A DNA stretch of 64,000 bases from Azolla caroliniana. Lineage: Eukaryota > Plantae > Polypodiophyta. Under the pieces are notes generated by a model. The model did not search any database, was not told the origin of the DNA, and saw only the letters and a list, made by a program, of their open reading frames with translations. The stretch spans positions 7,130,001 through 7,194,000 of the forward strand of contig JBHGNT010000021.1 of the NCBI GenBank assembly GCA_043228905.1, read 5' to 3'. Both the position numbers and the translations under genes were made by a program. Shown piece by piece: positions 1,139 to 52,555 of the stretch (its first letter is position 1; each line of letters begins with the position of its first letter).

Positions 1139-1344
1139 TTGGTGAAGAGGATCGTAGGGATATTATATGTAGTGTTACACCATCAACGTTTGAATGAAGA
1201 CATGGGGAGAATAAAATTTAGGGACCAATGTGTTTCAGAAGAGATTGTAGAGTCCATGAAGTCATCCCTAGACTTAGTGAAAGGTGTAGAAAGCATAGAC
1301 AAACTTGCTGCAAAGAGGGCAACCTTACACATGGTTGTGAACGG
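1139..1344 (+). pseudogene. Transposase N-terminal coding segment, split by the LTR element at 1345
   Basis: Removing 1345-17923 joins ...LHMVVNG to AREKKYTDTKVALALG in frame. True start not determined. Confidence 0.6.
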
Positions 1345-2155
1345 TGTTGTGAAGATTTTCGTCCATAAGCGGAAACCGGGGTGGAAAGGGCAAGTCGGTG
1401 GTGTGCAACATGTGCACACGATTACTAGGAAATGGTGTATAGAAATAAAAGGGGAAATTTCATCCCACATTGTAAGGTCCCTCCCTCCTTGGGCTATAAA
1501 AGGAAGGGAGGGGTCACTTATGAAGGGTTGCCCATTTTTGAGTCGTAAGGGTATACCATTTTGTACTTCGTTTCTAGGGTTAGTTACATTCTTTCCTTCT
1601 TCTTTTTCCCTCTGCTCCTTCTCCTTCTCGAGAACTCGAGCAGCAGCTATGGCAGGAAAGCTATTAGATTAACTCTTCTTCTTCTGTGCGTAGCCGGCTC
1701 GTGGCCGGGGTTGGATCTCTCCCTGTTGTAGGTTGCTTCTGCTCGGCCTCCTGTGCAAGGCCCCGCTCGGCGTGATGAGCCCGAGAGCTCCCTGACGGCG
1801 GCTTGGCAGCAGACTATCGTTGTAGCCTAGCCTACCTCAGTCCGGCTCGGAGTCGGAGTTGTAACTCACTCTTGTTATCATATATATATACAGGGTTGTG
1901 CATATTTGTGTCTCTGTCGGTGTCTGGTGCTTTCCCGTCCTTGTGTTTCCTGTACATAAGAGGTGTGCGTTGTGTCGGTGTTGCGCGTGTGTTCTCTCCC
2001 TCTCTTCCTCTCACGCGTTGGTAGCCACCGGTACGCGTCCGGAATCTCTCCGGTTCGCGCGACAACCAGTGTAGCCGGAACCGGAGAGAACTCGGCTTCC
2101 TACGCTCCGTCACTCCCTAGTCCAAGACCCCTGTGGTCTGCCTGGAATTCTACAC
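1345..2155 (+). repeat. 5' LTR of element A (major part; last 22 bp displaced to 13237-13258)
   Basis: Colinear with 17090-17897; TATAAAAG near 1495. Confidence 0.9.
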
Positions 2156-2770
2156 TGATGGAAAATTAATTGACACTTTCCAAACTTCACCTCTCGGCCA
2201 CAACCAAGGAAACACACGAATCGTTGTTGCAGAAAATGGGAAATGCAGAAGTAAATAAGTGGACACACGATTTAACGTGGAAAACCCTGTACGGGAAAAA
2301 CCACGAGAGTACAAGACTCCGAACCAAAAACTATGCACAGAGAAGTATACAATGGCGAGCTGCAAAGCGACGACCTTGAGCTCGCTGTCCTCGCCACAGG
2401 CGGCGGAAATACACAGAGGCGTCGACCTCTTCCTCTCTCACGCTCTATCTCTCTCACGGCTGCTCTCTCTTCACTCCTCTTGAGTGGAAAAACAGAAAAA
2501 ATGAGTAGCAACTTAAACTGTTTGCCCTAAGTCATATTTATACACATATGACTTTGGGGCTATTTACAACTATAGCCTCAAGGGCCCTTGGCAAACATAT
2601 TCACAGATATGTCCCCGCATCCGGATCTCTCTCCGGGTACATTCGTCATCCGGCTCCGAAGCCGGGGTCTTCATCATCCGGTTCCGAAACCGCAACCGGG
2701 CTTGTCGGCATTCATCTCCGATATCCGACCATCCCATCCGAAGGGACCGTAATCCCAACAAACTCCCCCT

Positions 2771-3965
2771 TCACTTCGGCATGGGATGTCTCTCCAATCC
2801 GATCCTCTTCCGGCATGCTTCCAGCTTGTCGGGTGTGAGCACCTTGGTCAGCATATCCGACCCGTTCTCGTCTGTGTGGACCTTCGTCAGCACGAACTCC
2901 TTGTCTTCTATCCTTTCCCGGATCCAGTGATATCTTCGCTGGATGTGCTTCGTCCGGGAGTGATAGGCCGCGTTCTTCGCAAGGTGGATGGCACTCTGAC
3001 TGTCGCAGTAGAGTCGGTACTCCTCCTGCTGGATACCGAGCTCTCTAATGAAGTCCTTCATCCATATTATTTCCTTGCCGGCTTCAACAGCCGCCATGTA
3101 CTCTGCCTCCATGGTTGACAACGCAACCGTCTTCTGCAGCCTCGACTGCCATGAAACAGCTCCCCCTGCATACGTCATCACATACCCTGATGTGGACCGG
3201 CTGGTATCTGCATCAGCCGACATATCCGAATCGGTAAAGCCGTCGAGTTCGGGCTTACCGGAGCCGAATCGGAGGCACACGTTTGTCGTGCCCTTCAGGT
3301 ATCGGAGTATCCACTTGGCCGCGTTCCAATGCTCTTTGCCGGGATTGCTCATGTACCGGCTCACCACTCCGACTGCGTATCCAATGTCCGGTCTTGTACA
3401 CACCATTGCGTACATCAAGCTTCCGACGGCAGAGGCATATGGCACTTTCATCATGTCCTCCTTCTCAGCCTTTGTCTTGGGGCTTTGCTTGCTGGACAGC
3501 TTGCAGTTTGCCGGGAGGGTCGATCCGACCGGTCTTGCTTCCGACATGTTGAACCGTTTAAGCACCTTTGTCACGTACTTCTCCTGTGACAGCCACAACT
3601 GCTTCTTGCTCCGGTCCCGGATGATGTGCATCCCTAGTATTTGTCTCGCCGGACCCAAGTCCTTCATTGAGAAGGTTCGGTGAAGAGCCTTCTTCAGCAT
3701 CCGTATCTTGACCTGGTCCCGTCCGACGATCAACATGTCGTCCACGTACAGGAGGAGTATTAGAAAGTCTCCTCCTTCGAACTTCTTCACAAACACGCAG
3801 TGGTCGGACTGCGTTTTGAGGTACCCTTCGTCGGTCATGAAAGAGTCGAACTTCCGGTACCATTGCCGGGGAGCCTGCTTCAGTCCGTAAAGGCTCTTCT
3901 TCAACCGGCATACCAGGTGCTCCTTCCCTTTCTTCTCGAATCCTTCCGGTTGCTGCATGTAGATC
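2771..3965 (-). pseudogene. pol: Copia B pol C-terminal part (RT C-half plus RNase H)
   Basis: LKKSLYGLKQAPRQW, LYVDDML, FTDSD, KHIQRRYHWIRE. Separated from the N-terminal part by insertion of B2. Confidence 0.95.
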
Positions 3966-4605
3966 TGTTGGAATTACGGTCCCTTCGGATGGGATGGTCG
4001 GATATCGGAGATGAATGCCGACAAGCCCGGTTTCGGTATCGGAACCGGATGAGGAAGACCCCGACTTCGGAGCCGGATGACGAATGTACCCGGAGAGCGA
4101 TCCGAATGCAGGGACATATCCGTGAATATGTCTGCTATGGGCCCCTGAGGCTATAGTTGTAAATAGCCCCAAAGTCATATATGTATAAATATGACTTAGG
4201 GCAATTCGTTTTGTGCTTGCTGATCATTTTTTTTTGTTTTTCCACTCAAGAGGAGTGAAGAGGGAGCAGCCGTGAGAGAGAGAGAGATAGAGCGCGAGAG
4301 AGGAAGAGGACGACGCCTCTGTGTATTTCCGCCGCCTGTGGCGAGGACAGCGAGCTCAAGGTCGTCGCCTTGGAGCTCGTCATTGTATACTTCTCTTTGT
4401 ATAGTGTTGTTTGGAGTCTTGTACTCCCGTGGTTTTTTCCCATCTAGGGTTTTCCACGTTAATCCCTGTGTACTCGTGTGTTTCTCTCTTTGGTTTCTAT
4501 TTTCTGCTGCATTGATCCGCGATTACTCGGTTGTGGCCGAGCGAAGAAGGTGAATCCAAGCGTTGATTCCCAACAAACTGGTATCAGAGCGAACTGCTGC
4601 AGAAA

Positions 4606-7600
4606 ATGGAAGGCGGCGGCAGCGGGCAGCCGGGGATGATGGTGCTGAATGCGCAGAATTACGCCGACTGGAAAATCAAGATGGAGGATCTTCTGATTGT
4701 TCGGGACCTGTACGAACCGATTGACAGGTCGGAAATACCGAAAGGGGTACTTGAGTCGGAATGGAGGCTTCTGAACCGGAAAGCCGTTGCAACCATTCGG
4801 CAATACGTCGACGTGAGCGTCCTACAACATGTGGCAAACGACACCAACGCATATGAGATGTGGAAGAAGCTGTCGGGCCTCTACGAGAGGAAGAATGCGT
4901 TGAACCGGACCTCCCTGATGAGGAAGATAGTGAATCTCAAGTACCGGGACGGCGAGAGTATGGTGGAACACGTAAGCACGTTCATGGGATTCGTGAATCA
5001 GCTTGCGGCGATCAAGTTCCCGCTGGAGGATGCAATGCAAGCCATCATCCTGATGTGTACATTGCCGGAAAGCTGGGAGAACTTGGTGGTGACTCTCAGC
5101 ACCTCGTGCACCGAAGATAACTTGTCCTTACAAACGGTAAAGACAAGTATTTTGAACGAAGAAGCGCGTCGGAGAGATAAAGAACCGGCCTCCGACTCGA
5201 AGGCGCTGCTTACCGAATCGGATCGGGGAAGACAATGGAACCGGAGTCCGCAAAGACGGGAGAAGTCGGGGACCCGGTCGCAGTCAAGAGGAAGGCCCAC
5301 ATGCTTCCACTGTGGGAAGCCGGGGCACTTTCGAAAGAATTGTCGGCATTACCGAAAAGACAACGGAGCCGACGACACCGATTCGAAGAAGTCACCGGAG
5401 AGAAACGGTGCATACCGGGGAGCCACGGACCGGAGAGGTTCGGATCGGCGAGGGCAGGACCGGAAAGGAACGACGGCACTCGCGGCAAGTGAGGAAGAAA
5501 TCATGCTCATCACCGAAGAAGGTGAACTAAACATTGCCGACAATGAGACGACCTGGGTGGTCGATTCCGGAGCATCGTTCCACCTGACCCCGGAGAGAAG
5601 ATACTTCTCATCCTACACAGCCGGTGAGTATGGCTGTGTTCGGATGGGAAATGAAGGTACGTGCCGGATTGCCGGCATCGGAGACGTGTGGTTGACAACC
5701 CCGACCGGATGCAAAATGCTGCTGAAGGATGTCCGACACGTTCCGGAGGTTCGATTGAACCTGATTTCGGCCGGGAGGCTAGACGATGAAGGCTACACAG
5801 GTAGCATCCGGAACGGCATAATGAAGTTCAGCAAGGGGAGCCTGATAGTGGCTCGGGCCCGGAAAGACAACACACTGTACCTGATGAATGCCCGGTTATG
5901 TCCGGAAGAGCTGAATGTGGCAACCGACACTGCCGGTGAGCTGTGGCACAAAAGACTGTGCCACATGAGTGAGAAGGGGATGAAGAGGCTTGCAGAAGAC
6001 AACCTTATTCCAGTGAAGCAAGTGCACCTGGAGAAGTGCACCGATTGCCTGGCCGGTAAGCAGAACCGAACCTCCTTCCACTCAAGGCCACCGACGAGAC
6101 GTAGCGCACCATTGGAGTTGGTGCACACTGATGTGTGTCAGGTAGAAACGAAGTCACATGGCGGAGCCCAGTACTTCGTAACATTCATTGATGATCACAG
6201 CCGGAAGCTGTGGTCGGCACCGTTGAAGACAAAGGACCAAGCGTTGTGCGTCTTCAAAGAACTCCACGCGAGAGTGGAAAGGGAATCCGGCAAGAAGCTG
6301 AAAGCGATACGAGCGGATAACGGAGGGGAATACCGGGGGCAGTTCCAGGAGTACTGTCGCTCGAAGGGAATCCGACTCGAGTTTACTGTGCCGAAGACGC
6401 CGGAACTGAACGGGCTGGCCGAGAGGATGAACCGGACCATAATGGAGAGGGTCCGGAGTATGCTGGCGCATGCGAAATTACCCAAGGGGTTTTGGGCTGA
6501 GGCAATGTCGACGGCGACATACGTGATAAACAGATCACCCTCAGTACCTTTGGACGGAGACACGCCGCAGAAAGTGTGGACCGGTAATGAAGTGTCCTAC
6601 CGGCATCTGAAGGTGTTCGGGTGTCTCGCATACGTGCATGTGGCAAAGGACTGGAGAGGAAAGCTAGATCCAAAGACCCGGCCATGCATATTCCTCGGTT
6701 ACGGCGATGACGAGTTCGGCTACCGAGTATGGGACCCGGTCGACAAGAAGATATTCAGGAGTCGAGACATCATCTTCATGGAGGACAAGACACTCGCCGA
6801 CTGGGAGTCGGAGAAGAAGGTGAAGAGCTCCAAGTCGACCGGTGAGGATCAACTCTACGAGGAGCAGTCCCGACCGGCAAGGGACCGGTTAGCACTCGAG
6901 GATCCGGCCGAAGATGGTGAAGAAACAGAACCGGCGGAAGAAGATGAAAACGATACCGGAACCGGCCCCGATCCCGAAATGGATTCGGATGAAGAAGAAT
7001 CGGAAGAACCGGTTACCGAAGCTCCGGAACGGAGATATCCTCTAAGAGAGAGAAGGGCCCCCCGGAGATTTCCGGAACCAGAGCACGTGCTGCTAACCGA
7101 CGAGGGGGAGCCGGAGAGCTTTGAAGAAGCAAAGCATGACACCCAAAGCCGCAGGTGGTTGAGTGCCATGCAGGACGAGATGGATTCCTTGCATGAGAAC
7201 CACACATATGAACTTGTGGAGTTGCCGAAAGGAAAGCGGGCACTTCGAAACAAGTGGGTGTTCAAGCTGAAACCGGGAGATGCCGGAAACCCCCCGAGAT
7301 ACAAAGCCAGGATCGTGGTGAAGGGGTTTCAGCAAAAGAAGGGCGTCGACTTCGACGAGATATTTGCCCCGGTAGTGAAGATGACCTCCATCCGGACGGT
7401 GCTGAGCATAGCGGCAAGCATGGACCTCGAGGTAGAACAGATGGACGTAAAGACGGCATTCCTTCACGGTGACCTCGAAGAAGAGATCTACATGCAGCAA
7501 CCGGAAGGATTCGAGAAGAAAGGGAAGGAGCACCTGGTATGTCGGTTGAAGAAGAGCCTTTACGGACTGAAGCAGGCACCCCGGCAATGGTACCGGAAGT

Positions 7601-9093
7601 TCGACTCCTTCATGACCGACGAAGGGTACCTCAAAACGCAGTCCGACCACTGCGTGTTTGTGAAGAAGTTCGAAGGAGGAGACTTTCTCATACTCCTCCT
7701 GTACGTGGACGACATGTTGATCGTCGGACGGGACCAGATCAAGATACGGATGCTGAAGAAGGCTCTTCACCGAACCGTCTCAATGAAGGACCTGGGTCCG
7801 GCGAGACAAATACTAGGGATGCACATCATACGGGACCGGAAGAAGAAGCAGTTGTGGCTGTCACAAGAAAAGTACGTGACGAAGGTGCTTCACCGGTTCA
7901 ACATGTCGGAAGCGAGACCGGTCGGATCGTCCCTCCCGACAAACTGCAAGCTGTCCAGCAAGCAAAGTCCCAAGACAAAGGCTGAAAAGGAGGATATGAT
8001 GAAAGTGCCGTATGCCTCAGCCGTCGGGAGCTTGATGTACGCCATGGTGTGTACGAGACCGGACATCGGATATGCAGTCGGAGTGGTGAGCCGGTACATG
8101 AGCAATCCCGGCAAAGAGCATTGGAACGCGGTCAAGTGGATACTCCGATACCTGAAGGGCACAGCGAATGTGTGCCTCCGATTCGGCTCCGGTAAACCCG
8201 AACNNNNNNNNNNNNNNNNNNNNNNNNNNNNNNNNNNNNNNNNNNNNNNNNNNNNNNNNNNNNNNNNNNNNNNNNNNNNNNNNNNNNNNNNNNNNNNNNN
8301 NNNACACCGGTTCAACATGTCGGAAGCGAGACCGGTCGGATCGTCCCTCCCGACAAACTGCAAGCTGTCCAGCAAGCAAAGTCCCAAGACAAAGGCTGAA
8401 AAGGAGGATATGATGAAAGTGCCGTATGCCTCAGCCGTCGGGAGCTTGATGTACGCCATGGTGTGTACGAGACCGGACATCGGATATGCAGTCGGAGTGG
8501 TGAGCCGGTACATGAGCAATCCCGGCAAAGAGCATTGGAACGCGGTCAAGTGGATACTCCGATACCTGAAGGGCACAGCGAATGTGTGCCTCCGATTCGG
8601 CTCCGGTAAACCCGAACTCGACGGTTTCACCGATTCGGATATGTCGGCTGATGCAGATACCAGCCGGTCCACATCAGGGTATGTGATGACGTATGCAGGG
8701 GGAGCTGTTTCGTGGCAGTCGAGGCTGCAGAAGACGGTTGCGTTGTCAACCACGGAGGCGGAGTACATGGCAGCTGTTGAAGCCGGCAAGGAAATAATAT
8801 GGATGAAGGACTTCATTAGAGAGCTCGGTATCCGGCAGGAGGAGTACCGACTCTACTGCGACAGTCAGAGTGCAATCCACCTTGCGAAGAACGCGGCCTA
8901 TCACTCCCGGACGAAGCACATCCAGCGAAGATATCACTGGATCCGGGAAAGGATAGAAGACAAGGAGTTCGTGCTGACAAAGATCCACACGGACGAGAAC
9001 GGGTCGGATATGCTGACCAAGGTCCTCACACCCGACAAGCTGGAAGCATGCCGGAAGAGGATCGGATTGGAGAGACATCCCATGCCGAAGTGA
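4606..9093 (+). CDS. gag-pol: Copia Gag-Pol polyprotein (gag, CCHC knuckle, protease, integrase, RT, RNase H)
   Basis: CFHCGKPGHFRKNC, WVVDSGASFH, LWHKRLCH..C..C, VHTD..ADNGGEY..NGLAER, YVDD. True length is probably about 1357 aa after removing the 414-bp gap plus overlap. Confidence 0.95.
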   Translation: MEGGGSGQPGMMVLNAQNYADWKIKMEDLLIVRDLYEPIDRSEIPKGVLESEWRLLNRKAVATIRQYVDVSVLQHVANDTNAYEMWKKLSGLYERKNALNRTSLMRKIVNLKYRDGESMVEHVSTFMGFVNQLAAIKFPLEDAMQAIILMCTLPESWENLVVTLSTSCTEDNLSLQTVKTSILNEEARRRDKEPASDSKALLTESDRGRQWNRSPQRREKSGTRSQSRGRPTCFHCGKPGHFRKNCRHYRKDNGADDTDSKKSPERNGAYRGATDRRGSDRRGQDRKGTTALAASEEEIMLITEEGELNIADNETTWVVDSGASFHLTPERRYFSSYTAGEYGCVRMGNEGTCRIAGIGDVWLTTPTGCKMLLKDVRHVPEVRLNLISAGRLDDEGYTGSIRNGIMKFSKGSLIVARARKDNTLYLMNARLCPEELNVATDTAGELWHKRLCHMSEKGMKRLAEDNLIPVKQVHLEKCTDCLAGKQNRTSFHSRPPTRRSAPLELVHTDVCQVETKSHGGAQYFVTFIDDHSRKLWSAPLKTKDQALCVFKELHARVERESGKKLKAIRADNGGEYRGQFQEYCRSKGIRLEFTVPKTPELNGLAERMNRTIMERVRSMLAHAKLPKGFWAEAMSTATYVINRSPSVPLDGDTPQKVWTGNEVSYRHLKVFGCLAYVHVAKDWRGKLDPKTRPCIFLGYGDDEFGYRVWDPVDKKIFRSRDIIFMEDKTLADWESEKKVKSSKSTGEDQLYEEQSRPARDRLALEDPAEDGEETEPAEEDENDTGTGPDPEMDSDEEESEEPVTEAPERRYPLRERRAPRRFPEPEHVLLTDEGEPESFEEAKHDTQSRRWLSAMQDEMDSLHENHTYELVELPKGKRALRNKWVFKLKPGDAGNPPRYKARIVVKGFQQKKGVDFDEIFAPVVKMTSIRTVLSIAASMDLEVEQMDVKTAFLHGDLEEEIYMQQPEGFEKKGKEHLVCRLKKSLYGLKQAPRQWYRKFDSFMTDEGYLKTQSDHCVFVKKFEGGDFLILLLYVDDMLIVGRDQIKIRMLKKALHRTVSMKDLGPARQILGMHIIRDRKKKQLWLSQEKYVTKVLHRFNMSEARPVGSSLPTNCKLSSKQSPKTKAEKEDMMKVPYASAVGSLMYAMVCTRPDIGYAVGVVSRYMSNPGKEHWNAVKWILRYLKGTANVCLRFGSGKPEXXXXXXXXXXXXXXXXXXXXXXXXXXXXXXXXXXHRFNMSEARPVGSSLPTNCKLSSKQSPKTKAEKEDMMKVPYASAVGSLMYAMVCTRPDIGYAVGVVSRYMSNPGKEHWNAVKWILRYLKGTANVCLRFGSGKPELDGFTDSDMSADADTSRSTSGYVMTYAGGAVSWQSRLQKTVALSTTEAEYMAAVEAGKEIIWMKDFIRELGIRQEEYRLYCDSQSAIHLAKNAAYHSRTKHIQRRYHWIRERIEDKEFVLTKIHTDENGSDMLTKVLTPDKLEACRKRIGLERHPMPK
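8204..8303. other. Assembly gap (100 N) with duplicated flank
   Basis: Sequence from 8305 repeats sequence from 7891 up to the gap edge at 8203, indicating an unmerged contig overlap. Confidence 0.9.
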
Positions 9094-9713
9094 AGGGGGA
9101 GTTTGTTGGAATTACGGTCCCTTCGGATGGGATGGTCGGATATCGGAGATGAATGCCGACAAGCCCGGTTTCGGTATCGGAACCGGATGAGGAAGACCCC
9201 GACTTCGGAGCCGGATGACGAATGTACCCGGAGAGCGATCCGAATGCAGGGACATATCCGTGAATATGTCTGCTATGGGCCCCTGAGGCTATAGTTGTAA
9301 ATAGCCCCAAAGTCATATATGTATAAATATGACTTAGGGCAATTCGTTTTGTGCTTGCTGATCATTTTTTTTTGTTTTTCCACTCAAGAGGAGTGAAGAG
9401 GGAGCAGCCGTGAGAGAGAGAGAGATAGAGCGCGAGAGAGGAAGAGGACGACGCCTCTGTGTATTTCCGCCGCCTGTGGCGAGGACAGCGAGCTCAAGGT
9501 CGTCGCCTTGGAGCTCGTCATTGTATACTTCTCTTTGTATAGTGTTGTTTGGAGTCTTGTACTCCCGTGGTTTTTTCCCATCTAGGGTTTTCCACGTTAA
9601 TCCCTGTGTACTCGTGTGTTTCTCTCTTTGGTTTCTATTTTCTGCTGCATTGATCCGCGATTACTCGGTTGTGGCCGAGCGAAGAAGGTGAATCCAAGCG
9701 TTGATTCCCAACA

Positions 9714-12598
9714 AGATCTCTTCTTCGAGGTCACCGTGAAGGAATGCCGTCTTCACGTCCATCTGTTCTACCTCGAGGTCCATGCTTGCCGCTATGCTCA
9801 ACACCGTTCGGATGGAGGTCATCTTCACTACCGGGGCAAATATCTCGTCGAAATCGACGCCCTTCTTCTGCTGAAACCCCTTCACCACGATCCTGGCTTT
9901 GTATCTCGGGGGGTTTCCGGCATCTCCCGGTTTCAGCTTGAACACCCACTTGTTTCGAAGTGCCCGCTTCCCTTTCGGCAACTCCACAAGTTCATATGTG
10001 TGGTTCTCATGCAGGGAATCCATCTCGTCCTGCATGGCACTCAACCACCTGCGGCTCTGGGTGTCATGCTTTGCTTCTTCAAAGCTCTCCGGCTCCCCCT
10101 CGTCGGTTAGCAGCACGTGCTCTGGTTCCGGAAATCTCCGGGGGGCCCTTCTCTCTCTTAGAGGATATCTCCGTTCCGGAGCTTCGGTAACCGGTTCTTC
10201 CGATTCTTCTTCATCCGAATCCATTTCGGGATCGGGGCCGGTTCCGGTATCATTTTCATCTTCTTCGGCCGGTTCTGTTTCTTCACCGTCTTCGGCCGGA
10301 TCCTCGAGTGCTAACCGGTCCCTTGCCGGTCGGGACTGCTCCTTGTAGAGTTGATCCTCACCGGTCGACTTGGAGCTCTTCATCTTCTTCTCCGACTCCC
10401 AGTCGGCGAGTGTCTTGTTCTCCATGAAGATGATATCACGACTCCGGAATATCTTCTTGTCGACCGGGTCCCATACTCGGTAGCCGAACTCGTCATCGCC
10501 GTAACCGAGGAATATGCATGGCCGGGTCTTTGGATCTAGCTTTCCTCTCCGGTCCTTAGCCACATGCACATATGCGAGACACCCGAACACCTTCAGATGC
10601 CGGTAGGATACTTCCCTGCCGGTCCACACTCTCTGCGGCGTGTCTCCGTCCAAAGGTACTGAGGGTGATCTGTTTATCACGTATGTCGCCGTCGACATTG
10701 CCTCAGCCCAAAACCCCTTGGGTAATTTCGCATGCGCCAGCATACTCCGGACGCTCTCCATTATGGTCCGGTTCATCCTCTCGGCCAGCCCGTTCAGTTC
10801 CGGCGTCTTCGGCACAGTAAACTCGAGCCGGATTCCTTTCGAGCGACAGTACTCCGCGAACTGCCCCCGGTATTCCCCTCCGTTATCCGCTCGTATCGCT
10901 TTCAGCTTCTTGCCGGATTCCCTTTCCACTCTCGCGTGGAGTTCTTTGAAGACGCACAACACTTGGTCCTTTGTCTTCAACGGTGCCGTCCACAGCTTCC
11001 GGCTGTGATCATCAATGAATGTTACGAAGTACTGGGCTCCGCCATGTGACTTCGTTTCTACCTGACACACATCAGTGTGTACCAACTCCAATGGTACACT
11101 ACGTCTCGTCGGTGGCCTTGAGTGGAAGGAGGCTCGGTTCTGCTTACCGGCCAGGCAATCGGTGCACTTCTCCAGGTGCACGTGCTTCACTGGAATAAGG
11201 TTGTCTTCTGCAAGCCTCTTCATCCCCTTCTCACTCATGTGGCACAGTCTTTTGTGCCACAGCTCACCGGGCAGTGTCGGCTGCCACATTTAGCTCTTCC
11301 GGACATAACCGGGCATTCATCAGGTACAGTGTGTTGTCTTTCCGGGCCCGAGCCACTATCAGGCTCCCCTTGCTGAACTTCATTACGCCGTTCCGGATGC
11401 TACCTGTGTAGCCTTCATCGTCTAGCCTCCCGGCCGAAATCAGGTTCAATCGAACCTCCGGAACGTGTCGGACATCCTTCAGCAGCATTTTGCAACCGGT
11501 CGGGGTTGTCAACCACACGTCTCCTATGCCGGCAATCCGGCACGTACCTTCATTTCCCATCCGAACACAGCCATGTTCACCGACTGTGTAGGATGAGAAG
11601 TATCTTCTCTCCGGGGTCAGGTGGAATGACGCTCCAGAATGGACTACCCAGGTCGTCTCATCGCCGGCAATGTTTAGTTCACCTTCTTCGGTGATGAGCA
11701 TGATTTCTTCCTCACTTGCCGCGAGTGCCGTCGTTCCTTTCCGGTCCTGCCCTCGCCGATCCGGACCTCTCCGGTCCGTGGCTCCCCGGTATGCACCGTT
11801 TCTCTCCGGTGACTTCTTCGAATCGGTGTCGTCGGCTCCGTTGTCCTTTCGGTAATGCCGACAATTCTTCCGGAAGTGCCCCGGCTTCCCACAGTGGAAG
11901 CATGTGGGTCTTCCTCTTGACTGCGACCGGGTCCCCGACTTCTCCCGTCTTTGCGGACTCCGGTTCCATTGTCTTCCCCGTTCCGATTCGGTAAGCAGCG
12001 CCTTCGAGTCGGAGGCCGGTTCTTTATCTCTCCGACGCGCTTCTTCGTTCAAAATACTTGTCTTTACCGTTTGTAGGGACAAGTTATCTTCCGTGCAGGA
12101 GGTGCTGAGAGTCACCACCAAGTTCTCCCAGCTTTCCGGCAATGTACACATCAGGATGATGGCTTGCATTGCATCCTCCAACGGGAACTTGATCGCCGCA
12201 AGCTGGTTCACGAATCCCATGAACGTGCTTACGTGTTCCACCATACTCTCGCCGTCCCGGTACTTGAGGTTCACTATCTTCCTCATCAGGGAGGTCCGGT
12301 TCAACGCATTCTTCCTCTCGTAGAGGCCCGACAGCTTCCGCCACATCTCATATGCGTTGGTGTCGTTCGCCACATGTTGTAGAACGCTCACGTCGACGTA
12401 TTGCCGAATGGTTGCAACGGCTTTCCGGTTCAGAAGCCTCCATTCCGACTCAAGTACCCCCTTCGGTATTTCCGACCTGTCAATCGGTTCGTACAGGTCC
12501 CGAACAATCAGAAGATCCTCCATCTTGATCTTCCAGTCGGCGTAATTCTGCGCATTCAGCACCATCATCCCCGGCTGCCCGCTGCCGCCGCCTTCCAT
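9714..12598 (-). pseudogene. gag-pol: Copia B gag-PR-INT-RT N-terminal part, disabled
   Basis: ATG at 12598 (MEGGGSGQPG). One extra G near 11270 relative to B2 causes a frameshift. Protease catalytic DSG reads HSG. RT is interrupted by B2. Confidence 0.92.
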
Positions 12599-13262
12599 TT
12601 TCTGCAGCAGCTCGCTCTGATACCAAATTGATGGAAAATTAATTGACACTTTCCAAACTTCACCTCTCGGCCACAACCAAGGAAACACACGAATCGTTGT
12701 TGCAGAAAATGGGAAATGCAGAAGTAAATAAGTGGACACGATTTAACGTGGAAAACCCTGTACGGGAAAAACCACGGGAGTACAAGACTCCGAACCAAAA
12801 ACTATGCACAGAGAAGTATACAATGGCGAGCTGCAAAGCGACGACCTTGAGCTCGCTGTCCTCGCCACAGGCGGCGGAAATACACAGAGGCGTCGACCTC
12901 TTCCTCTCTCACGCTCTATCTCTCTCACGGCTGCTCTCTCTTCACTCCTCTTGAGTGGAAAAACAGAAAAAATGAGTAGCAACTTAAACTGTTTGCCCTA
13001 AGTCATATTTATACACATATGACTTTGGGGCTATTTACAACTATAGCCTCAAGGGCCCTTGGCAAACATATTCACAGATATGTCCCCGCATCCGGATCTC
13101 TCTCCGGGTACATTCGTCATCCGGCTCCGAAGCCGGGGTCTTCATCATCCGGTTCCGAAACCGCAACCGGGCTTGTCGGCATTCATCTCCGATATCCGAC
13201 CATCCCATCCGAAGGGACCGTAATCCCAACATACACATACCCGCGAAACTTCACGACATCTT

Positions 13263-13279
13263 TGGTGAACTTGACGTGA
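13263..13279 (+). promoter_or_regulatory. Primer-binding site, tRNA-Trp type (element A)
   Basis: TGGTGAACTTGACGTGA; consensus TGGTGAACCCGACGTGA is complementary to the plant tRNA-Trp 3' end (TCACGTCGGGTTCACCA). Confidence 0.8.
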
Positions 13280-13295
13280 AAGGCGGCAAGGGAGG

Positions 13296-17919: not shown

Positions 17920-17923
17920 ACGG

Positions 17924-32002: not shown

Positions 32003-32005
<3 letters not shown>

Positions 32006-40332: not shown

Positions 40333-41925
40333 AGAAAATCGTCCCTTAGCGCAATCGGTGCATAGCGCGCGTGAACCGGCTCTTCACGCGTGCGCGCCCT
40401 TAATGTATATAATAGGGAATTAGGTACATAGGTATATCCTGGGTAGTTAGATTTGGTAGGTAGGAAGTAAATGAGGGAGACGGCTCCCTTCTTGATGCTA
40501 TAAAGGAGAGGGAGACACAGGGAGAAGGGATCGCGCATTGAGGAGGACGAAGTGTTGTCGGACCGGAACCGAATGCTTCTCCTCTATTTGTTCTCTATTG
40601 CTCTTCTCTGCAGGTTTTCGGGAGGCTCGCGCTGCTTCGAGGAACGCCCGTGTGCTTTCGGCAACACCTCCATCCTATCCCCTTTCGTGCGCAGACGAGC
40701 AGGCATCGGCATCTGTTTGTCGGCCTGTTCGGTTGTAACCGCTCGCATGCTCTGTTGTGTTTTTTTTGTGTCACTTGTTAATATACAAACATTTGTGTCT
40801 CTCTGTCTCTGTGTCCATTCGTGTCTTCTGCGTTGACGGGTCGTGTCCCTGTGTTTCTTTGCTCATACGTAACCGGTCGTCTCTCTCTTTCTCTTTCCCC
40901 TCCTATCACCTGCTCTTCGGTTCAAGACCCCGGTGGTCCTGCCTCGTTTCTCGACGAATGCGCATAGTAACGCGACAACGTTCACCGGTACATGCCAAGT
41001 TCGGAGAAGGGTGAGAGATTCCGGCCGGTGATGAACCCGTCTTCCGTAATCCGCATTTCGGATGCCGCGTTGGCCTCGCCAGTCCGAAATATCGGCCCTG
41101 GTTCCTTCTCCACGTTTGCCTCCCCGTAGGCTTGTTCGACCCGTCGATAGGTCATTCGCCACAATCTCGTAGTGTGCGTGCTTCCCCATTGGCCCTCCTC
41201 TCAACCGCATGCATGCTTCTTGTCCCTTCAGATACACTGTGTCCTCCGTCCGAGGAGCACCCGTGATGGCTCGCTTGGTTCTCGTTCCGCGTTGATCTCC
41301 ACCGTCGTCGTCCCCTTGCCGCAACCTACCTTCTCCTTGGTCTTACATTGCCATGGCGGCCAAACTGCCAAGGTCTCTAGAACGAGTGTGGAGGATCCCT
41401 CTCCGATCTTCTACGTGAGATCACCTGGACCGACAATCCATCTTCGCGCCTATATTCCCGCTCTGGCACCTCCATGTGTCGCGCATCCCCTTCTCGTGTT
41501 CGGCTTCGCCCGTGCCGAACTCCGGTTTCGTCCTATGCACACGTCGTTGGCCCTGACCCGACCAGATCGTGCATCACCGCTTCTCCGCATACCGGTGTCC
41601 TCCGCGTATCAGGAACACCCCGTAGTAGCCCGCTTGGCCACTTTCGTCTTCCGTTGTTGCCACCGGTTTGGAGCCTTCCGCTTGGCGTCGTCCCCTCGCC
41701 CCCACTAGCTTGTTACCCCAGGTTTGGTCTGCCACGCTAGTCGTTGCCACTCCGACTAAGCCGCCGAGATCTCCGAAGTGGGTGTGGAGGATCATTCTCC
41801 GGCCCTCGATCCTGCTTCCGGTCTCCAATCCGTGTAGTTTGTTACGCGCCCGTGTTCTCATTCCCAGCACCGCCGTGTGCCGTCTTCCGCCGTCCTTGTT
41901 CGGCACCGCTTGTGCCGAACACCGT

Positions 41926-42656
41926 TGTCGTGATGTTTTTCGTCCATGGTGAGAAAACCGAGCGGGATAGAGAAAACAGAGATGTGCAACATTGCACATG
42001 AACTTAGGGAAATTGTAACATAGGGACAAATAAGCAAATGTAAAGTGTAAGGAGTTAAGGTGCTCTACAAAGTTGTTAAGTGTAAATGTGATGTGCACTT
42101 TGTGGACTAGAGGGAGGTACATAGAGAATGAGTGTAAGAGTGATGGGCATTGAGTAGGACGGCTAGAGGAGAGAGACTTAAGGCCCATCAATCTCGAGAT
42201 CGGGGCAAATATTCTCCTTTGAATGAAAGGGGAATTGACCATTCCTATTGTATTGTGCCTCACCCCTTACCACTATAAAAGGGAGTGAGGGTTCCCTTTT
42301 GAAGGGGTTGCCTATTTTGCGTATGAGAGGTATACCACTTAGTCTAGAGTTCTTACCGTTTTAGGGTTAGGGTTTCCTTTAGGGTTTCCTTATTCATCTT
42401 CGGTTAGGGTTTTCTCATAGTCGTTTGGTGCGGCCCATGCGGCCACCATTGTTGTAATCATTCATTTGTTTTAATATAACTCGTTTAGTATCTTGCCTCC
42501 ACCGATCTCTCCTTCTATCTCATGATCTTATTCTTTCCTCTTCTCCTCTTGAGCTAAGCTTCCATATCATATCTTATTCTTTCTCCTCTAGACCCTAGTC
42601 CAAGACCCCCGCGGTCCCGCCTCAGATCCTACACGTACTCGCAGAATAACGCGACA
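41926..42656 (+). mobile_element. Solo LTR of the Gypsy family
   Basis: TGTCGTG...CGCGACA; TSD ccgt at 41922-41925 and 42657-42660. The 3' half is nearly the same as the LTR of element C. Confidence 0.92.
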
Positions 42657-44994
42657 CCGTCCCGTACCCGTGCTTTGCTTTGGCCCTCGATGGCCACACG
42701 CACGTCTTTTGATCCGCTTTCGAGTGTGCCCTTCCCGGCTCGGCGCACCGCTCCTTGACCGGGTGTCCCCGACATCTTACCGGAAGATCACCCTTGCCAC
42801 GTTCCGACCCGCATGGCCTCCTTCGTTCGCGTGACGCCTCAGCTATTTGGTGCTTCTGCTCTTGTCACCTTCGTCCCCTTGCCACCACCTTCCAATACCC
42901 TCGGTCTCACGTTGTCATGGCGGCCGAACTACCGGGGTCTTCGGACAGGTGTGAAGGATCCTTCTTGGGCCTCTGATTTGTTGGGTCACCGACTCGTGTA
43001 CCGAGCACGTCCAATCTTTCTCTTGCAGACTCTATCGGTCGGGTCCATATCCGGTTCGTGGGCGCGTCACTGGCCTGATACCTCTTTCCGCTCTTTCGGC
43101 CCTTGCTTCGTCGGATCCCGTTCACCTACCGCCACCATCCTTCTCTCTAGGTCTCATGTCAACTCTTTCGACCGACTGCCGGAGTCTCCGGATCGGTGTG
43201 AGGATTGTCGTAGGATCGCCCATCCGCACTTCCCTCATTGTTGGTTCCCGTTTCCTGCCGCCACCATCCTTCTCACTCGGTCTCACGTTGCCATGTCGGC
43301 TTGAACTACTGGTGACTCCGGATCGATGTGAGGACCCCATAGGACTGTCTTCCACGTAGTTTTCCGGTCGGGTCGGTTCCCGTTCTTGCCAGAAGGCCTG
43401 ATTTCGGTTTGTGGCTGCCACTTCCCGCATCGCCAGTTCCCGTTTCCTACCACCACCATCCTTCTCACTCGGTCTCACGTCGCCATGTCAGCTTGAACTG
43501 CCGGTGTCTCCAGATCGATGTGAGGATCCCATAGGACCATCTTCCTTTGCCGTTTTCGCCCTTCTACTTGATCCCGTTCACCTGCCGCCACCGTCCATCT
43601 CTCTAGGTCTCACGCCGGCTCTCGGGCAAGATCATTGTAGGATCGCCCCATCCCTGCCTTTGCTCTCGTCCCCTTGACGCCATCGTCAATCTCTTGGTCT
43701 TACGTCGGCTCTGCTGCCGACTACTAAAGTCTCTAGATCCGGTGTGAAGGATCCTCCTTGGACCCCCAATTTGTCTTCCCGACCTTGTCCCGGGTCATCC
43801 TTCTCCGTATGCTGAGAGGGTGGCTCGCTCCACACCCCCTCCCGTGGTACCGATGTACCGTGTTCCCGGCCTCCCCGTAGGCCTGCTTCTTTCCCCCTTC
43901 TGGATCGGTTATCCAAAAGTCCGCTCCACCCGGTTCTCATCTGGGTCCGTCCGTCACTTTGCATTTTCGGGTCTCGTTCTCCTGCCGCCACTGTCAATAT
44001 CTTGGTCTTACGTCGGATCCGATGCCAACCGCCGAAGTCTCTAGCCCGGTGTGAGGTGACCCATAGGACCAGTCTTCGTTCCTCCGCTTCCGGATCGGTT
44101 GTTTGGCCGTGACCTCCGCGTCCTCACCGCCACTTTCCGTCTCTTAGGTCTTCCGTTGGTTCTTGGACGCAACCGCCTAAGTCTCGGGAACGAGTGTGGA
44201 GGACATATACGTCAATCAACCGCCTCTTTCGTTTCTCCCCCTGCCGCCATCGATGCCCTTCTTTGCGCTTCCCCACCATCTCCCTTCTCTTTCGGTCTCA
44301 CGTTGCCACGCCGGCGGAACTGCCGAAGTCTCCGGTCAAGATGTGGGGACATCGATTTCGTAACGACTCCCGACAACTTGTCCCAGGCCACCAACCCTTT
44401 TAGTGGTGTCGGTGGAAAGAATCCGCTCTATGATCGATCAAGCCCTGCCTGGGCTTGATTCTCCAATGTCCGGGGTTTCGGCTCCGATGCCAATCCCACC
44501 GTACTCGTTCTGTACTCTCGGTCATCTTCTTCCCGATTCCCGACCTTCGCCCGATCGGTCTTTCTCCCCCTGTAAAAGAGGGCGGCCCATCCCGCACCCT
44601 CTCCCGTATCGGCACCTTCATACTGAACCTTGCCCCTGTCGAACGATCCACATCCGGATCGTGCTCCACCGGAATCGGAATGCCGACCAGTTCGATCCCC
44701 GGTCAAGTCGACTTCTGATTCCACTCCCTTCGGCGCCGGCTCTCATTTCCTCTTTCTTCTCTACCGTGGCTCTGTCCCTCAACCTCCTCGCAGGCCGTTT
44801 CCCATCCACCTTCGCTGGCATTGGCCAGGACTCCTTACTGGCGCATCCATCTCCCCGGTCTTATGTCGGCACACAGGCTCGACTGCCGGAGTCTCCGGAA
44901 TCTGCGTGGAGGGCTCTTCTCCTCTCCCGACCTCCACCTTGGCCGGTCTTTCTCCACAATTCGAGAGGGCGTCTCGCTCCACACCCTCTCCTAT

Positions 44995-46482
44995 TGTTGC
45001 ACAAGAATTTGCCTCTCAAAACTCTAGCACAATACATCTAGAAACACACAAGGCACATCATCATAGGGCACCATAACAACATCTTTGAGTTTAAGAAAGA
45101 CCACAAACACAAAGGAGATGAATGGGTATGACAAAGACAATCAATGAAGAAATATGAAAGGGGAGGATCTATATCAAGAGTTGATAATATTATATATATT
45201 CTCACTAAACCAAAGAGGGTTTACAATATTTTATGATAATCATTCATGTACAACAAATAGGAGATTGGAATTGACAAAGATATGTATCATAATCTATGAA
45301 AGGAGGAAAGGAGAATGAAAATAGAGTATTTATTAACAAGACAGATATAAAAACACACGTTACATCAAGAGAGATATTCTATGGCTATCCTATTCTCAAG
45401 GCTTTCACACTCATACTTATATACAATAGGGGCTTAATTGTTAGTTGTTGTGAACTTGACGTTCCTTATGTCCGACGCTCGGCCACAACCGAGATTCTTT
45501 ACATACACAGCAAAACAGGTAATTAAAACGCGACACAAAAGAGGAGAAATGGTGCACAAGAGGTATACGTGGAAAACCCCAAAAAATTAGGGGGAAAAAC
45601 CACGGCAGCCCACAAGCTGCAAACTGTCACTATGCAGAAGTATACAACAGTAAGATCACTGAGGCAACGACCTCGTGCTCTCAGATCTTCGCCACAGGCG
45701 GCGGTTACAACAGAGGCAGGCAACGACCTCGTCTCTCTCTCTCTCTCTGTACAGTTACGCGCTCTGATTTCTTCTTGCACCAACAAGAAGAATAATAATG
45801 ACCACATATAACTAAAAGTTTGCCCTAAGTCATATTTATACTTATATGACTTTTCGGCTATTTACAAATGTAGCCTTGATGGGCTTCATCCGGTTCTCCG
45901 CAGTCGGGTACTCCTCATCCGGCTTCCCGCAGTCGGGCCTACACCATCCGACTATCCGCAGTCAGGCCTACACCATCCGACTATCCGCAGTCGGGATCTC
46001 CCCATCCGGTTCATACCGTTTCGGCCTCGGCCGAGTTTGTTCGTCGGCACTGTTCTTCTCCCTTTCCATCCGAAGGGACCTGTCTACCAACATTAGTTCT
46101 TGCATGTATCTTGCCACGTGTCGCACATGTAACACTTCAACCACTTTCCTTTGTGCATGTAACCGATAGATCTTCTATTTTGGGTATGAAGACGCTTGAT
46201 TCTATGCATGACCCCTTCTAGAAATTGGTATCACATCGAGCAAGCTTTCCAAAGAATGTTTATTTATTAAAATCCAATATTCCCTTGAAATATTACGACC
46301 AAAACATTGACTGCCTATTGTAAAGGCACTCTTTGATTATGTCACATCAATTCATCTTGATTCTTCACATCTACCTTCGACTAAAGCATCCACTATCATG
46401 CCTAAAGTGTCATAACTAGCTTGTGTCCATATTTTACTATCTTTCAACCACTTTGTTGAGCACAAGTATTTACAACACAACA
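44995..46482. mobile_element. AT-rich probable solo LTR (about 836 bp without its nested solo LTR)
   Basis: TGTTG...CAACA ends. Flanks ctat and ccgt; the homologous empty site in element A reads accctctc-ccgt. Confidence 0.6.
45446..46092 (-). mobile_element. Copia solo LTR related to element D
   Basis: Homologous to 55839-56527; TSD ttagt at 45441-45445 and 46093-46097. Confidence 0.93.
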
Positions 46483-47350
46483 CCGTCGTACCGTCGTACC
46501 ATTCCTCGGCCTCTGCCTGGACCTTGCCCGCCTTGTCTGGAAGACCGACTTGATCTGAGTCTTCAGAATCCGTTCACGTGCCAGATCTCTCTTCTTCTTC
46601 AACCATCGCCTTCAAAGCCTCAAACGCTTCCCGGACCAAGGCTTCGACATCGAGCTTCGCCGATTCTTCTTGTTGCATGCCCGCTTCCTACTGTGATGAC
46701 ACACCATCACGCATTATCTTCCTTTTGCCTTTTGCGGACCGCTCCTCGTCCAACTGTCAGCATACTCGTTCGACTTCCGACCAGTCCTCGGTAAGGCCAT
46801 TCGCTCTGTCAGCATCTTCAAGCTCAATCCCGATGGCCTCCCATTCCGCTCGGTCTATTGACCTAACGAATAATAGGACTTTGTCCGCCCCCACCAGACT
46901 TTGCTCCCGCTCCGGGAGCCGAGCAAGCCGTTGCAGGAACTCTCGGAATGCCTTCGTTGCGCCCCGGTGGGTCTTCGCCGATGCAACCCACTGATCGAAG
47001 TCGCGTCGTCCCCGGCTCTTCCACCGTCCTCCATATGCTTGCAGGCGCGCCTCTTCGAAGGCCTCCCACGAACTATGAGCTTCTCGGAGCTCCCTCACTT
47101 CTGCATGCATATAGACGGCAACGACCCGAGAGAAGAACTCCAGCCTCAACGCCTCGTCTACGTCTCGCACCTCCATTTCTACGTTGTAGGCTTCCAAGTA
47201 GAATGGGACTTTGTCCCCATTGAAACGACCGACTCTTTTGACCACTCGCTCAATAGCTTGTTGCGCCCCTTCCCGTCTCACCATCACTCGTCCGAACTTC
47301 AACACCACTTCAGCCACCATCTCCGCGAAGTCATCGTCTTCCAACTCCAT
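46483..47350 (-). pseudogene. gag: Gag capsid-like region of element X
   Basis: MELEDDDF...VKRVGRFNGDKVPFYLEAYNVEM...LTEDWSEVERVC; stop at 46757. Confidence 0.8.
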
Positions 47351-47388
47351 CCTCCCTTGCTGCCATTTCACGTTGGGTTCACCAAAGA

Positions 47389-48421
47389 TGTCACGGTTTT
47401 CCGCGGGTACGTGTAGGATCTTTGGCAGGACCGTGGGGGTCTTGGACTAGGGAGACGGATGGTGGAGTCCTTAAGCTTTGTGGGCTTCAGTGCGGAATCG
47501 GCTTCCGGCTCCAACGAATGTAGGGTTTCACAAAAACGGTTCACCGCGAATATGGATCTGACTCAAATATGTTACAAGGAAAATAGATATACGCTAACAT
47601 GAATATATATTACAAGAGCTTTACAACAAGATGGTTACATGCCCCGAATCCAGTGGCTATTACATATCAATAGGCTAATACAACAAGTTAAGAATGGGAA
47701 CCGACGAAGGCGAGTCAAGTGGGCCGTCGGGACCGCGACATCCACCATTGGTCACACCCTGAAGACGGTAGAGTGTTCCCGTGCCACTTTGCCCTCCCTT
47801 CTCGAACTGGCCGCCACAAGAAACGCTCTCCATCGAGGAGAGGAAGCCGAATCACCAAGTGCTACCACCGGAATGCCTAAAGCCACCGTTGTAGGAACCC
47901 CCAAACCAAACCAAACTCTCACACGAAGAAGAGAGAGTAACACCCGAAACCCTAAGTCGCACGAACTCTCACAAGAAGAAGAACCTAAACGGAATACTAA
48001 CCTCCACTTGAAAGAATAAACCAAACCCACAAGACAATGAAGAAGAAGACTCAAAATGAAACCCTAAACGAAATATGGTGAAAAGACCAAAGTAGAAACC
48101 CTAAGAGAACAAGAATAAGATGAAGAGGGAGAACACTACCAAACCCTAGACCTAAGTGGTATACCCTCCTAACTCAAAATGGGCAACCCTTTTACAAAAG
48201 GCGCTCCCTTCCTTTTATAGAACAAGGAGAGGGATGCATAACAATGTGGGATAAATCCCTTATTACATGGGATCCTCTGTCCCGAATAAACTACTGTCCG
48301 GCACCATAATGGTGCCCCCTATCATTTACACAATTTGTACAAGGGTGAGTGCACATGCTCCACCCCGCCGAATCTTCCGATATTTCCCGGTTTCTCACCA
48401 TGGCCCGGAATCTTCACGACA
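47389..48421 (-). repeat. 5' LTR of element X (1033 bp)
   Basis: TG...CA; adjacent to the Trp PBS; homologous to 32358-33214. Confidence 0.88.
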
Positions 48422-48425
48422 GCGT

Positions 48426-50898: not shown

Positions 50899-50989
50899 TA
50901 CGAGCCGGATGTACTGAATACCGTCCGAACCGCATACGAGCCGGATGTACCAGATACCGTCCGAACCGCATACAAGTCGGATGTACCAA

Positions 50990-51434
50990 TGTCATGAAGA
51001 TTTCTGGCTACAGTGAGAAAACCGGGAGGGACAAATAAATGGGGATGTGCAACATTGCACATGCACTTGTAAATTTATATGATGAGAATAAGATAACAAA
51101 ATGTAAAGTGGAAGAGTAGTAATCTAAGGTGCTAAAGGTGCACCACGAAGTTCGTAGAGGCATAAATGTGATGTGCACTTTGTAGAGTAGAATGAGTCGT
51201 GGGCATTGAGAGTGAATGTGATAGGAGAGAGAGAGAGTTTAAGGCCCACCGATTTAAGATCAAAGGAGATATTCCCCATTAAAGGAAAGGGGATTTTACT
51301 CCCTCTTGTAATGTGCTCACCCCTTACTACTATAAAAGGGAGTGAGGGGTCACTTGTGAAGGGGTTGCCTATTTTGAGTGAGAGAGGTATACCGCTTAGG
51401 TCGAGGGTTCTTTTTGGGGTTTTAGGGTTTCTTA
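50990..51434 (+). repeat. 5' part of a Gypsy-family LTR, interrupted
   Basis: TGTCATGAAGATTT start; resembles 41926-42360, including tataaaagggagtgagggg. Confidence 0.8.
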
Positions 51435-51899
51435 TGTTAGGAAACAGGTCCCTCCGGATGGGAAGTGAGAAGAATAGTGATGATGAGCAAACTCAACCGA
51501 GGCCGAAACCGGATGTGGTGTACCCGGCAACGGAAGACCCGGTGAGAACCGGATGTGGAGTACCCGGCAAGAGCCGGATGGTGAAGGCCCGGTGAGAGCC
51601 AGATGACAAGTACCCGGCAAGAGTCGGATGGTGAAGACCCGGTGAGAACCGGATGTGGAGTACCCGGCAACGGAAGACCCAGTGAGAACCGGATGACGTG
51701 TGCTCGGCAAGCGTCGAATCATGACGGCCCGGTGAGGAGTGCTCACCGGATGAAGGGACATATTCGTAAATATGTTTCTGAGAGTCCATCGGGGCTATAT
51801 TTGTAAATAGCCGAAAAGTCATATTAGTATAAATATGAGTTAGGGCAAACTTAGTACTTATGATGTTGTCATTCTTGTTGGTGCAAGATTAGAGCGCGT
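51435..51899 (+). repeat. 5' part of a Copia LTR (D-related), interrupted by Gypsy E
   Basis: tgttaggaaacaggtccctccggatggg start, U3 tandem repeats, and the aagtcatat..tataaatatgagttagggc box shared with the D and B LTRs. Confidence 0.8.
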
Positions 51900-52555
51900 T
51901 GTCGTGAAGAAAACCGTCCACAAGCGGAATCGGTGCACCGGAGCGTAGGAACCGGCTCTTCATGCACGTACGCCTTATGTTGTACATAAGAGAGAATTAG
52001 GTACATAGAAGATCCTAGGTAGGTAGATTCGGTAGGTAGGAAGTTAATGGGAAACGGCTCCTTTCTTGCCTATAAAAGGAGGGAGGACAAAGTGTTGTGG
52101 GGGGTCGGGCCGAAGGCTTCTCTCTCTTCCATACTCCGTAGCTTCTTCCTGTGCAGGTTTTTCGGGAGGCTCGCGCTGCTCTGAGGAATGCCCGAGTGCT
52201 TCCGGCAGCACCTCCAACCTACTCCTTTCTTTCTGAGCGTTTACGAACAGGCATCGGCATCTGTTCGCCGGCCTGTTCGGTTGTAACCGACTTCATGCTT
52301 CTTGTTGTTTGTCCTTGTTAATATATATATACATACATTCGTGTCTCTCTGCATCGGTGTCCCACTCGCGTCTTTTTGTCGAAGGGCCGTGTCCCTGTGA
52401 ATCTACGCCCACACGTAGTGGGTCCCTTCCCTTCTCCTTTGTCTCTTGCTCTTCAGTACAAGACCCCCGAGGCCCCGCCTCATTCCACGCATCCGCGAGG
52501 AATACCTCGACATCTTGGTGAACCCGACGTGAAGGAGGCGGTAGAAGAGCAGAAG

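What the first reader, a model, noticed from the sequence alone, without database searches (positions are those of the whole stretch)
1341..51900. Gypsy family that integrates at CpG: 4-bp target duplications are N-CG-N
Seen: paired TSDs are acgg (1341/17920), acgt (15108/15764), acgt (23816/28241), acgt (33971/40978) and ccgt (41922/42657). One further pair is decayed (ctat/ccgt, 44991/46483). Single visible flanks are tcgg (33211), gcgt (48422) and gcgt (51896). The only exception, ccaa (50986), could be a deaminated ccga or ccgg. Nearly all contain ACG on one strand. Two insertions hit CpG inside AT-rich, CpG-poor transposon DNA, so base composition alone is an unlikely explanation. The four Copia TSDs (tacac, agatc, ttagt, atcac) are 5 bp and lack CpG, giving an internal control. 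Established: most plant LTR elements make 5-bp TSDs with weak preference; CGCG targeting is known for Drosophila ZAM and Tirant. Inference: this chromodomain-less integrase reads CpG or methyl-CpG directly, steering insertions into CpG-rich TE DNA and causing self-nesting. I cannot tell whether this has been reported for this lineage.
Basis: partly seen in the sequence, partly recalled or inferred. Interest (0 to 1): 0.85.

Follow-up and report, generated by a model that had tools for sequence, protein, structure and literature searches.

The report
Phygy-type retrotransposons inserting at CG sites
These plant jumping genes insert almost only into four-base sites with CG in the middle, a real pattern that was already published in 2019 for Phygy, the moss retrotransposon lineage they likely belong to, and whether the enzyme senses DNA methylation is untested.

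Summary
All listed 4-mers are at the stated coordinates. 9 of 10 insertions have a central CG (P about 1e-11 against local CpG), and no 5- or 6-bp duplication fits. Paralogous empty sites confirm the 4-bp duplication and indicate that the odd sites are decayed CpG. Outside the window, 15 of 19 junctions in metagenome contigs have a central CG, and 617 reads clipped at the LTR end give the majority letters ACGT.

It is not new. Neumann et al. 2019 (PMC6317226) report 4-bp NCGN target duplications as the hallmark of the Phygy lineage (186 Physcomitrella elements). The window's elements meet the Phygy features I could test: 4-bp NCGN, tRNA-Trp-type primer site, no chromodomain, no archaeal RNase H, no extra ORF. 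They are slightly shorter (7.0 kb). A tree against REXdb could not be run.

The integrase most likely selects the CG step itself, by bending plus base contacts; that mechanism is inferred. Methyl-CpG reading is untested. Self-nesting is not in excess of the CpG share of the target DNA.

The parts
1341..17923 (+). E1: non-autonomous element 1345-17919 with TSD ACGG/ACGG. The 5' LTR (1345-2155 and 13237-13258) is split by nested Copia elements; the 3' LTR is 17090-17919.
   Evidence: local flank CpG 0.024 per position
15108..15767 (-). E2: solo LTR 15112-15763 with TSD ACGT/ACGT, inside the E1 internal region
   Evidence: both flanks abut a single 4-mer (ACAT, decayed) in the paralogue at 43853-43856
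23816..28244 (+). E3: young non-autonomous element 23820-28240 with TSD ACGT/ACGT, in AT-rich DNA-transposon-like DNA; intact primer site after 24349
   Evidence: LTRs 485 matches, 4 mismatches; flank CpG 0.012
33211..33951 (-). Y: 3' LTR 33215-33951 with the single flank TCGG. It interrupts a second copy (32358-33214) of the X LTR.
   Evidence: the uninterrupted X copy reads CCGG at this place
33971..40981 (+). E4: full-length but decayed autonomous-type element 33975-40977 (7003 bp; LTRs 33975-34627 and 40325-40977; RT-RH-INT order) with TSD ACGT/ACGT
   Evidence: paralogous empty site in E1 at 17067-17070 reads ACGT
41922..42660 (+). E6: solo LTR 41926-42656 with TSD CCGT/CCGT
44991..46486 (-). 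E7: old, diverged solo LTR 44995-46482 holding a Copia solo LTR; TSD CTAT/CCGT
   Evidence: clan membership rests on its termini only
47389..48425 (-). X: 5' LTR 47389-48421 with primer site; single flank GCGT in a Copia element
50986..51431 (+). E9: truncated LTR 50990-51431 with flank CCAA in a Copia tandem repeat
   Evidence: neighbouring units read CTGA and CCAG
51896..64000 (+). E8: young autonomous-type element from 51900 (5' LTR to 52512; Copia inserted in RT at 55839-61329; 3' LTR from 63743, cut by the window end); flank GCGT; about 6960 bp without the Copia
   Evidence: (258 of 258 LTR bases identical)
62304..63671 (+). Integrase of E8: HHCC domain, D-D-E core (codons at 62736, 62913, 63018), SH3-type C-terminal domain, short acidic tail, no chromodomain
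24354..24371 (+). Primer binding site, tRNA-Trp type (the same site follows the 5' LTRs of E1, E4, E8 and X)
   Evidence: 16 of 17 bases match the complement of a human tRNA-Trp 3' end; exact complement of an abundant 18-nt plant small RNA ending in CCA

Best explanation
These are non-chromovirus Ty3/gypsy retrotransposons, likely of the Phygy lineage, that leave 4-bp target duplications with CG at the centre, and their integrase likely picks the CG step itself whether or not it is methylated. Shown: 4-bp stagger, central CG, weak preference for A at position 1 and T at position 4, no bias outside the duplication, no chromodomain. Inferred: a two-fold symmetric intasome bends the target and unstacks the central pyrimidine-purine step, as in prototype foamy virus. 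Lineage-specific residues would narrow the usual YR preference to CG. Candidates are the conserved Gln-His in the C-terminal-domain loop and the Arg-Gly-Glu after the second catalytic Asp. Later methylation and deamination would explain the CA/TG exceptions.
For: Window: 9 of 10 events. Metagenome loci: 15 of 19 junctions have CG, 2 have CA and 2 are other, at a background of 0.064. Reads and contigs clipped at the LTR end give majority letters ACGT in X21 (617 reads, agreement 0.36 over the whole loose end), X1 (22 contigs) and X3 (7 contigs). In 35 half-sites, C is 31 and G is 31 at the central positions, and no base exceeds 13 at positions -1 to -6 (paired TSDs count twice). No central TA among 10 events or 19 junctions, so YR flexibility alone does not explain the pattern. 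At the E4 site only 1 of 27 homologous positions carries CG, yet the copy that was hit reads ACGT. Phygy is published as 4 bp, NCGN, tRNA-Trp, no extra domain. Central YR selection and the Ala188/Arg329 base contacts are published for foamy virus. In 76 aligned integrases: Arg 71 of 76 and Glu/Asp 75 of 76 after the second Asp; Gln 69 of 75 and His 68 of 75 in the loop.
Against: No tree against authentic Phygy sequences: the REXdb files were too large to read, and no listed homologue was named Physcomitrium. Length is about 7.0 kb against the published 7656-9968 bp. Two of 19 outside junctions (TCCA, TTCT) are not CG-derived by a single deamination. The residue mapping to foamy virus is uncertain because of a one-residue gap nearby, and the model has pTM 0.54 and no DNA. 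Nothing here separates methylated from unmethylated CG.
Confidence: 0.7

Rival explanations
1. The intasome prefers or requires methylated CpG, by direct contact with the 5-methyl groups or because methylation eases the central kink. This would steer insertions into silenced repeats without a chromodomain.
For: All 10 window sites lie in repeat or non-coding DNA. Differences between LTR pairs fall mostly in CG and CHG context (E4 19 of 27, E1 28 of 50), so the host likely methylates these sequences. No chromodomain.
Against: The window is nearly all repeats, so it offers no unmethylated control. Decay shows methylation at some time, not at insertion. Insertions follow CpG share with no excess in clan DNA. 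No methylome was available.
Confidence: 0.15
2. A host protein that binds CpG or methyl-CpG tethers the intasome and positions the cut.
For: Tethering is known for other gypsy integrases; the Ty3-TFIIIB structure is among the best matches. The integrase has an acidic tail that could bind a partner.
Against: The signal is confined to the two central bases with flat flanks. That is the geometry of active-site readout; tethers give regional or offset bias (established knowledge).
Confidence: 0.08
3. The elements are a separate bryophyte/fern lineage, a sister of Phygy or unrelated, that shares or converged on the same target.
For: Shorter than the published range. Named homologues are from Riccia and Adiantum, none from Physcomitrium.
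Against: The combination of 4 bp, NCGN, tRNA-Trp, no aRH and no chromodomain matches only the Phygy row of 15 gypsy rows.
Confidence: 0.06
4. Artefact of boundary calling or of base composition.
For: The window is CpG-rich (o/e 0.98) and the sample is small.
Against: Boundaries are fixed by PPT and PBS junctions and by paralogous empty sites. P about 1e-11 against local CpG. Replicated outside the window.
Confidence: 0.01

Closest known systems
Phygy lineage (non-chromovirus Ty3/gypsy; Neumann et al. 2019, PMC6317226)
   Same: 4-bp TSD with NCGN preference, tRNA-Trp primer site, no chromodomain, no aRH, no extra ORF, coding region fills the interior of autonomous copies
   Different: About 7.0 kb against 7656-9968 bp. 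Defined there as specific to Physcomitrella, while the host here is unnamed. Non-autonomous derivatives are abundant here. Tree placement was not tested.
TatI and Selgy lineages (same paper)
   Same: 4-bp TSD; TatI also uses tRNA-Trp
   Different: TatI carries aRH (100%), which is absent here. Selgy uses tRNA-Ala and is 4.4-6.7 kb. NCGN is reported for neither.
Prototype foamy virus and gammaretroviral integrases (PMC4422553)
   Same: 4-bp duplication, preference for a central YR step, same fold
   Different: Their preference is a modest enrichment (YR up 63% on average). Here it is near-absolute and specific to CG.
Drosophila ZAM (PMC2527525)
   Same: Gypsy integrase with CG-containing target specificity; 4-bp TSD
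   Different: Consensus is CGCGCG and needs further binding sites. A CGCG duplication has GC at its centre. Different lineage.

Membership tests
Phygy | 4-bp TSD | tested here: met
   5 perfect pairs and 1 decayed pair; no 5- or 6-bp fit; empty-site paralogues
Phygy | NCGN target preference | tested here: met
   9 of 10 in the window, 15 of 19 in other loci, majority ACGT in clipped reads
Phygy | tRNA-Trp primer binding site | tested here: met
   16 of 17 bases match a human tRNA-Trp 3' complement; exact complement of a plant CCA-ended small RNA. No plant tRNA-Trp gene was fetched.
Phygy | No chromodomain | tested here: met
   No Chromo hit at E up to 0.1 in 9 proteins; none in the precomputed Pfam lists of the listed homologues; the stop lies about 70 bp before the 3' LTR
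Phygy | No archaeal RNase H and no extra ORF in autonomous copies | tested here: met
   One RNase H between RT and INT. The only RVT_3 hit (E 0.048, one Riccia protein) overlaps that same domain.
Phygy | Length 7656-9968 bp (descriptive range in Physcomitrella) | tested here: inconclusive
   7003 and about 6960 bp, below the range. The paper calls size a weak classifier.
Phygy | Clusters with Phygy in RT/RH/INT phylogeny (the primary criterion) | not testable with these tools
   REXdb table and FASTA too large to read; no Physcomitrium-named homologue listed
TatI | aRH domain present | tested here: not met
Selgy | tRNA-Ala primer site | tested here: not met
   site is tRNA-Trp type
Chromoviruses (Tcn1 and others) | Chromodomain; mostly 5-bp TSD; self-priming in Tcn1 | tested here: not met

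The most novel reading that the evidence does not exclude
The integrase of this lineage, which spans bryophytes and ferns, is itself a methyl-CpG reader. It places the symmetric methyl-CG step at the centre of its active site through a lineage-specific Gln-His loop and Arg-Gly-Glu motif, and so targets heterochromatin without a chromodomain or host tether.
Probability: 0.12. Interest if true: 0.75.

Novelty: new member of a known kind. Interest (0 to 1): 0.2.

Why it matters
The pattern is published, so this is confirmation. It adds three small things: the preference in a further set of families and sequencing runs, a weak A/T bias at the outer TSD positions, and candidate integrase residues. 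I found no paper explaining how NCGN is chosen. An integrase with near-absolute CG specificity is a clean system for asking whether a retroelement can sense DNA methylation directly. If it does, that would be a route to heterochromatin targeting without a chromodomain.

Tried and rejected
No whole genome is held, so no genome-wide logo was built. 5- and 6-bp TSD readings were rejected. Excess self-nesting was not found. A longer palindrome outside the TSD was not seen, in line with the Phygy row of PMC6911290. A scan of viral contigs found no relative. The Atlas lacked the window protein, and a Riccia homologue gave only generic RT/RH/INT clusters. Cluster members of 10 top homologues carried no organism names. 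The P. patens RLG2 transcript was visible for 400 letters only and showed no recognisable match by eye; RLG3 has no sequence there, so neither could be tied to Phygy. The first read-laying did not display loose ends at the LTR termini. The paralogue check for the CCAT junction of L027 gave mixed 4-mers, and no paralogue was found for TCCA of L018. TTCT of L050 may be a decayed primer site rather than a flank, but it was kept in the count. The fold search only confirmed a retroviral-type integrase. Earlier scan findings: none. Runs with small word shares were not used.
Full report
Verdict. The pattern is real and replicates outside the window, but it is a published hallmark of the Phygy lineage. 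Reading of methylation remains untested.

Observation. The window is 51% GC with CpG at 6.4% of positions (o/e 0.98). No genome is held. Self-comparison and the sequence define ten insertion events of a TGTCG...CGACA clan: E1, E2, E3, E4, E6, E7, Y, X, E8 and E9. LTR ends are fixed independently of the flanks by the polypurine-tract and primer-site junctions. The BLAST found 14 LTR starts, 5 behind a PPT and 9 with a host flank, and no missed junction. None of the 6 pairs fits a 5- or 6-bp duplication. 9 of 10 events have a central CG against 0.56 expected from 250-bp flanks (P 1.3e-11). 8 of the 9 carry ACG on one strand against 0.36 expected (P 0.002). The four Copia TSDs are 5 bp without CpG.

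Empty sites. Both flanks of E2 and of E4 abut one 4-mer in a paralogue. Left-flank paralogues read CCGT for E6, CCGT in 3 of 4 for E7 (the fourth CTAT) and CCGG for Y. None was found for X or E8. The exception CCAA lies in a tandem repeat whose other units read CTGA and CCAG. At the E4 site 26 of 27 homologous positions lack CG, yet the hit copy reads ACGT. E7 has no long BLAST match to the other LTRs. Without it the count is 8 of 9.

Replication. 63 metagenome loci with related pol gave 19 LTR-host junctions: 15 CG, 2 CA and 2 other (TCCA, TTCT), at a background of 0.064. Some are the two sides of one insertion, and short-read assemblies of repeats can be chimeric. I laid four runs on the E4 LTR end plus primer site, so that only non-primer junctions clip at the LTR end. 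The majority letters of the loose ends begin ACGT in X21 (617 reads, agreement 0.36), X1 (22 contigs) and X3 (7 contigs). The X5 row was not shown. This gives no per-base frequencies, misses flanks that start with T, and some runs may be of the source organism. Over 35 half-sites (paired TSDs count twice) the centre is C 31 and G 31, position 1 is A 19, position 4 is T 21, and the outside positions are flat.

What the elements are. E4 and E8 have the order gag-protease, RT, RNase H, integrase and are 7003 and about 6960 bp long. There is no chromodomain and no second RNase H. The primer site matches tRNA-Trp. Named homologues are from Riccia and Adiantum at about 45-64% over RH-INT and up to 75% in RT; closer ones (up to 79% over RH-INT) are unnamed. 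A bryophyte host is my inference. E1, E3 and X/Y are non-autonomous derivatives with no Pfam hit in the internal ORFs scanned.

Known. Neumann et al. [quoted passage not shown] Their Additional file 5 lists Phygy as 186 elements, 4 bp (100%) NCGN, tRNA-Trp 81%, 7656-9968 bp, no extra domain. TatI has aRH and Selgy uses tRNA-Ala. Jedlicka et al. 2019 also report 4-bp TSDs as most common in Phygy and GC-rich centres in 4-bp TSDs. Phygy domains are annotated in a liverwort genome without TSD data. The primary criterion, the tree, could not be tested: the REXdb files were unreadable here and may bear on membership and on the outer-base bias. No listed homologue was named Physcomitrium.

Mechanism. 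Shown: a symmetric signal confined to the duplication. Published: 4-bp retroviral integrases favour a flexible central YR step that is unstacked in the bent target, and foamy virus Ala188 and Arg329 contact target bases. Here TA never appears at the centre and CA appears only where decay can explain it, so I infer base-specific readout on top of bending. The integrase has the foamy/Ty3-type fold. Across 76 aligned sequences it keeps Arg-Gly-Glu after the second catalytic Asp and Gln-His in the C-terminal-domain loop. That these positions correspond to the foamy target-contacting segments is my inference, partly recalled, and is weakened by an alignment gap. LTR-pair differences are mostly CG and CHG transitions, so the host likely methylates these repeats, but that does not show methylation at insertion. 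Insertions track CpG share: the clan has 63% of CpGs and 5 of 10 insertions, Copia 33% and 3, the rest 4% and 2. Self-nesting needs no further explanation.

Literature seen. PMC6317226: passages, section 9, Additional file 5 whole, term hits in two other files. PMC6911290: passages and section 8. PMC7466625: passages and one supplement part. PMC4422553, PMC2527525, PMC3276498, PMC12885004, PMC9002660, PMC5846777 and 10.1101/400127: passages only. Searches for a mechanism or a methylation link found none; the library lacks most subscription papers. No earlier scan finding matched.

Scores. Interest 0.2. New member of a known kind. The methyl-reader reading has probability 0.12 and interest 0.75 if true.

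Noticed in passing
window 24354-24371 (and after the other 5' LTRs): The primer site is the exact complement of the abundant 18-nt plant small RNA annotated as miR894. That RNA is likely a tRNA-Trp 3' fragment and could act on these elements.
   Followed up: partly
window 36745-36755 and 54672-54682: The gag-protease frame ends at GGATTTTTAG in both E4 and E8, with pol in another frame; looks like a ribosomal frameshift site. Not tested.
   Followed up: no
window 18369-21191: AT-rich, intron-split transposase-like ORFs with DFAENY and GHGKGEHDG motifs and no Pfam hit. The resemblance to Sola-type DNA transposons is recalled, not tested.
   Followed up: no
window 7891-8617: A 100-N gap (8204-8303) inside a Copia is flanked by an identical 313-bp duplication; probably an assembly overlap.
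   Followed up: no
window 32358-48421: Composite X/Y element: Y inserted into the second X LTR, and the rest of that LTR and Y's 5' LTR are missing, which suggests a deletion between related internal regions.
   Followed up: partly
window 2156-13231: A Copia nested in a related Copia; the inner copy (3966-9713) has identical 611-bp LTRs and a 1508-codon open frame, so it is very recent.
   Followed up: no
L009 1669-2305: Solo-type LTR with unlike flanks ACGT and CCGC, both with central CG: an inter-element recombinant or a chimeric contig.
   Followed up: no
L027 187 and L049 702: Two insertions in opposite orientation at the homologous ACGC site of the RNase H region; a possible hot spot.
   Followed up: no
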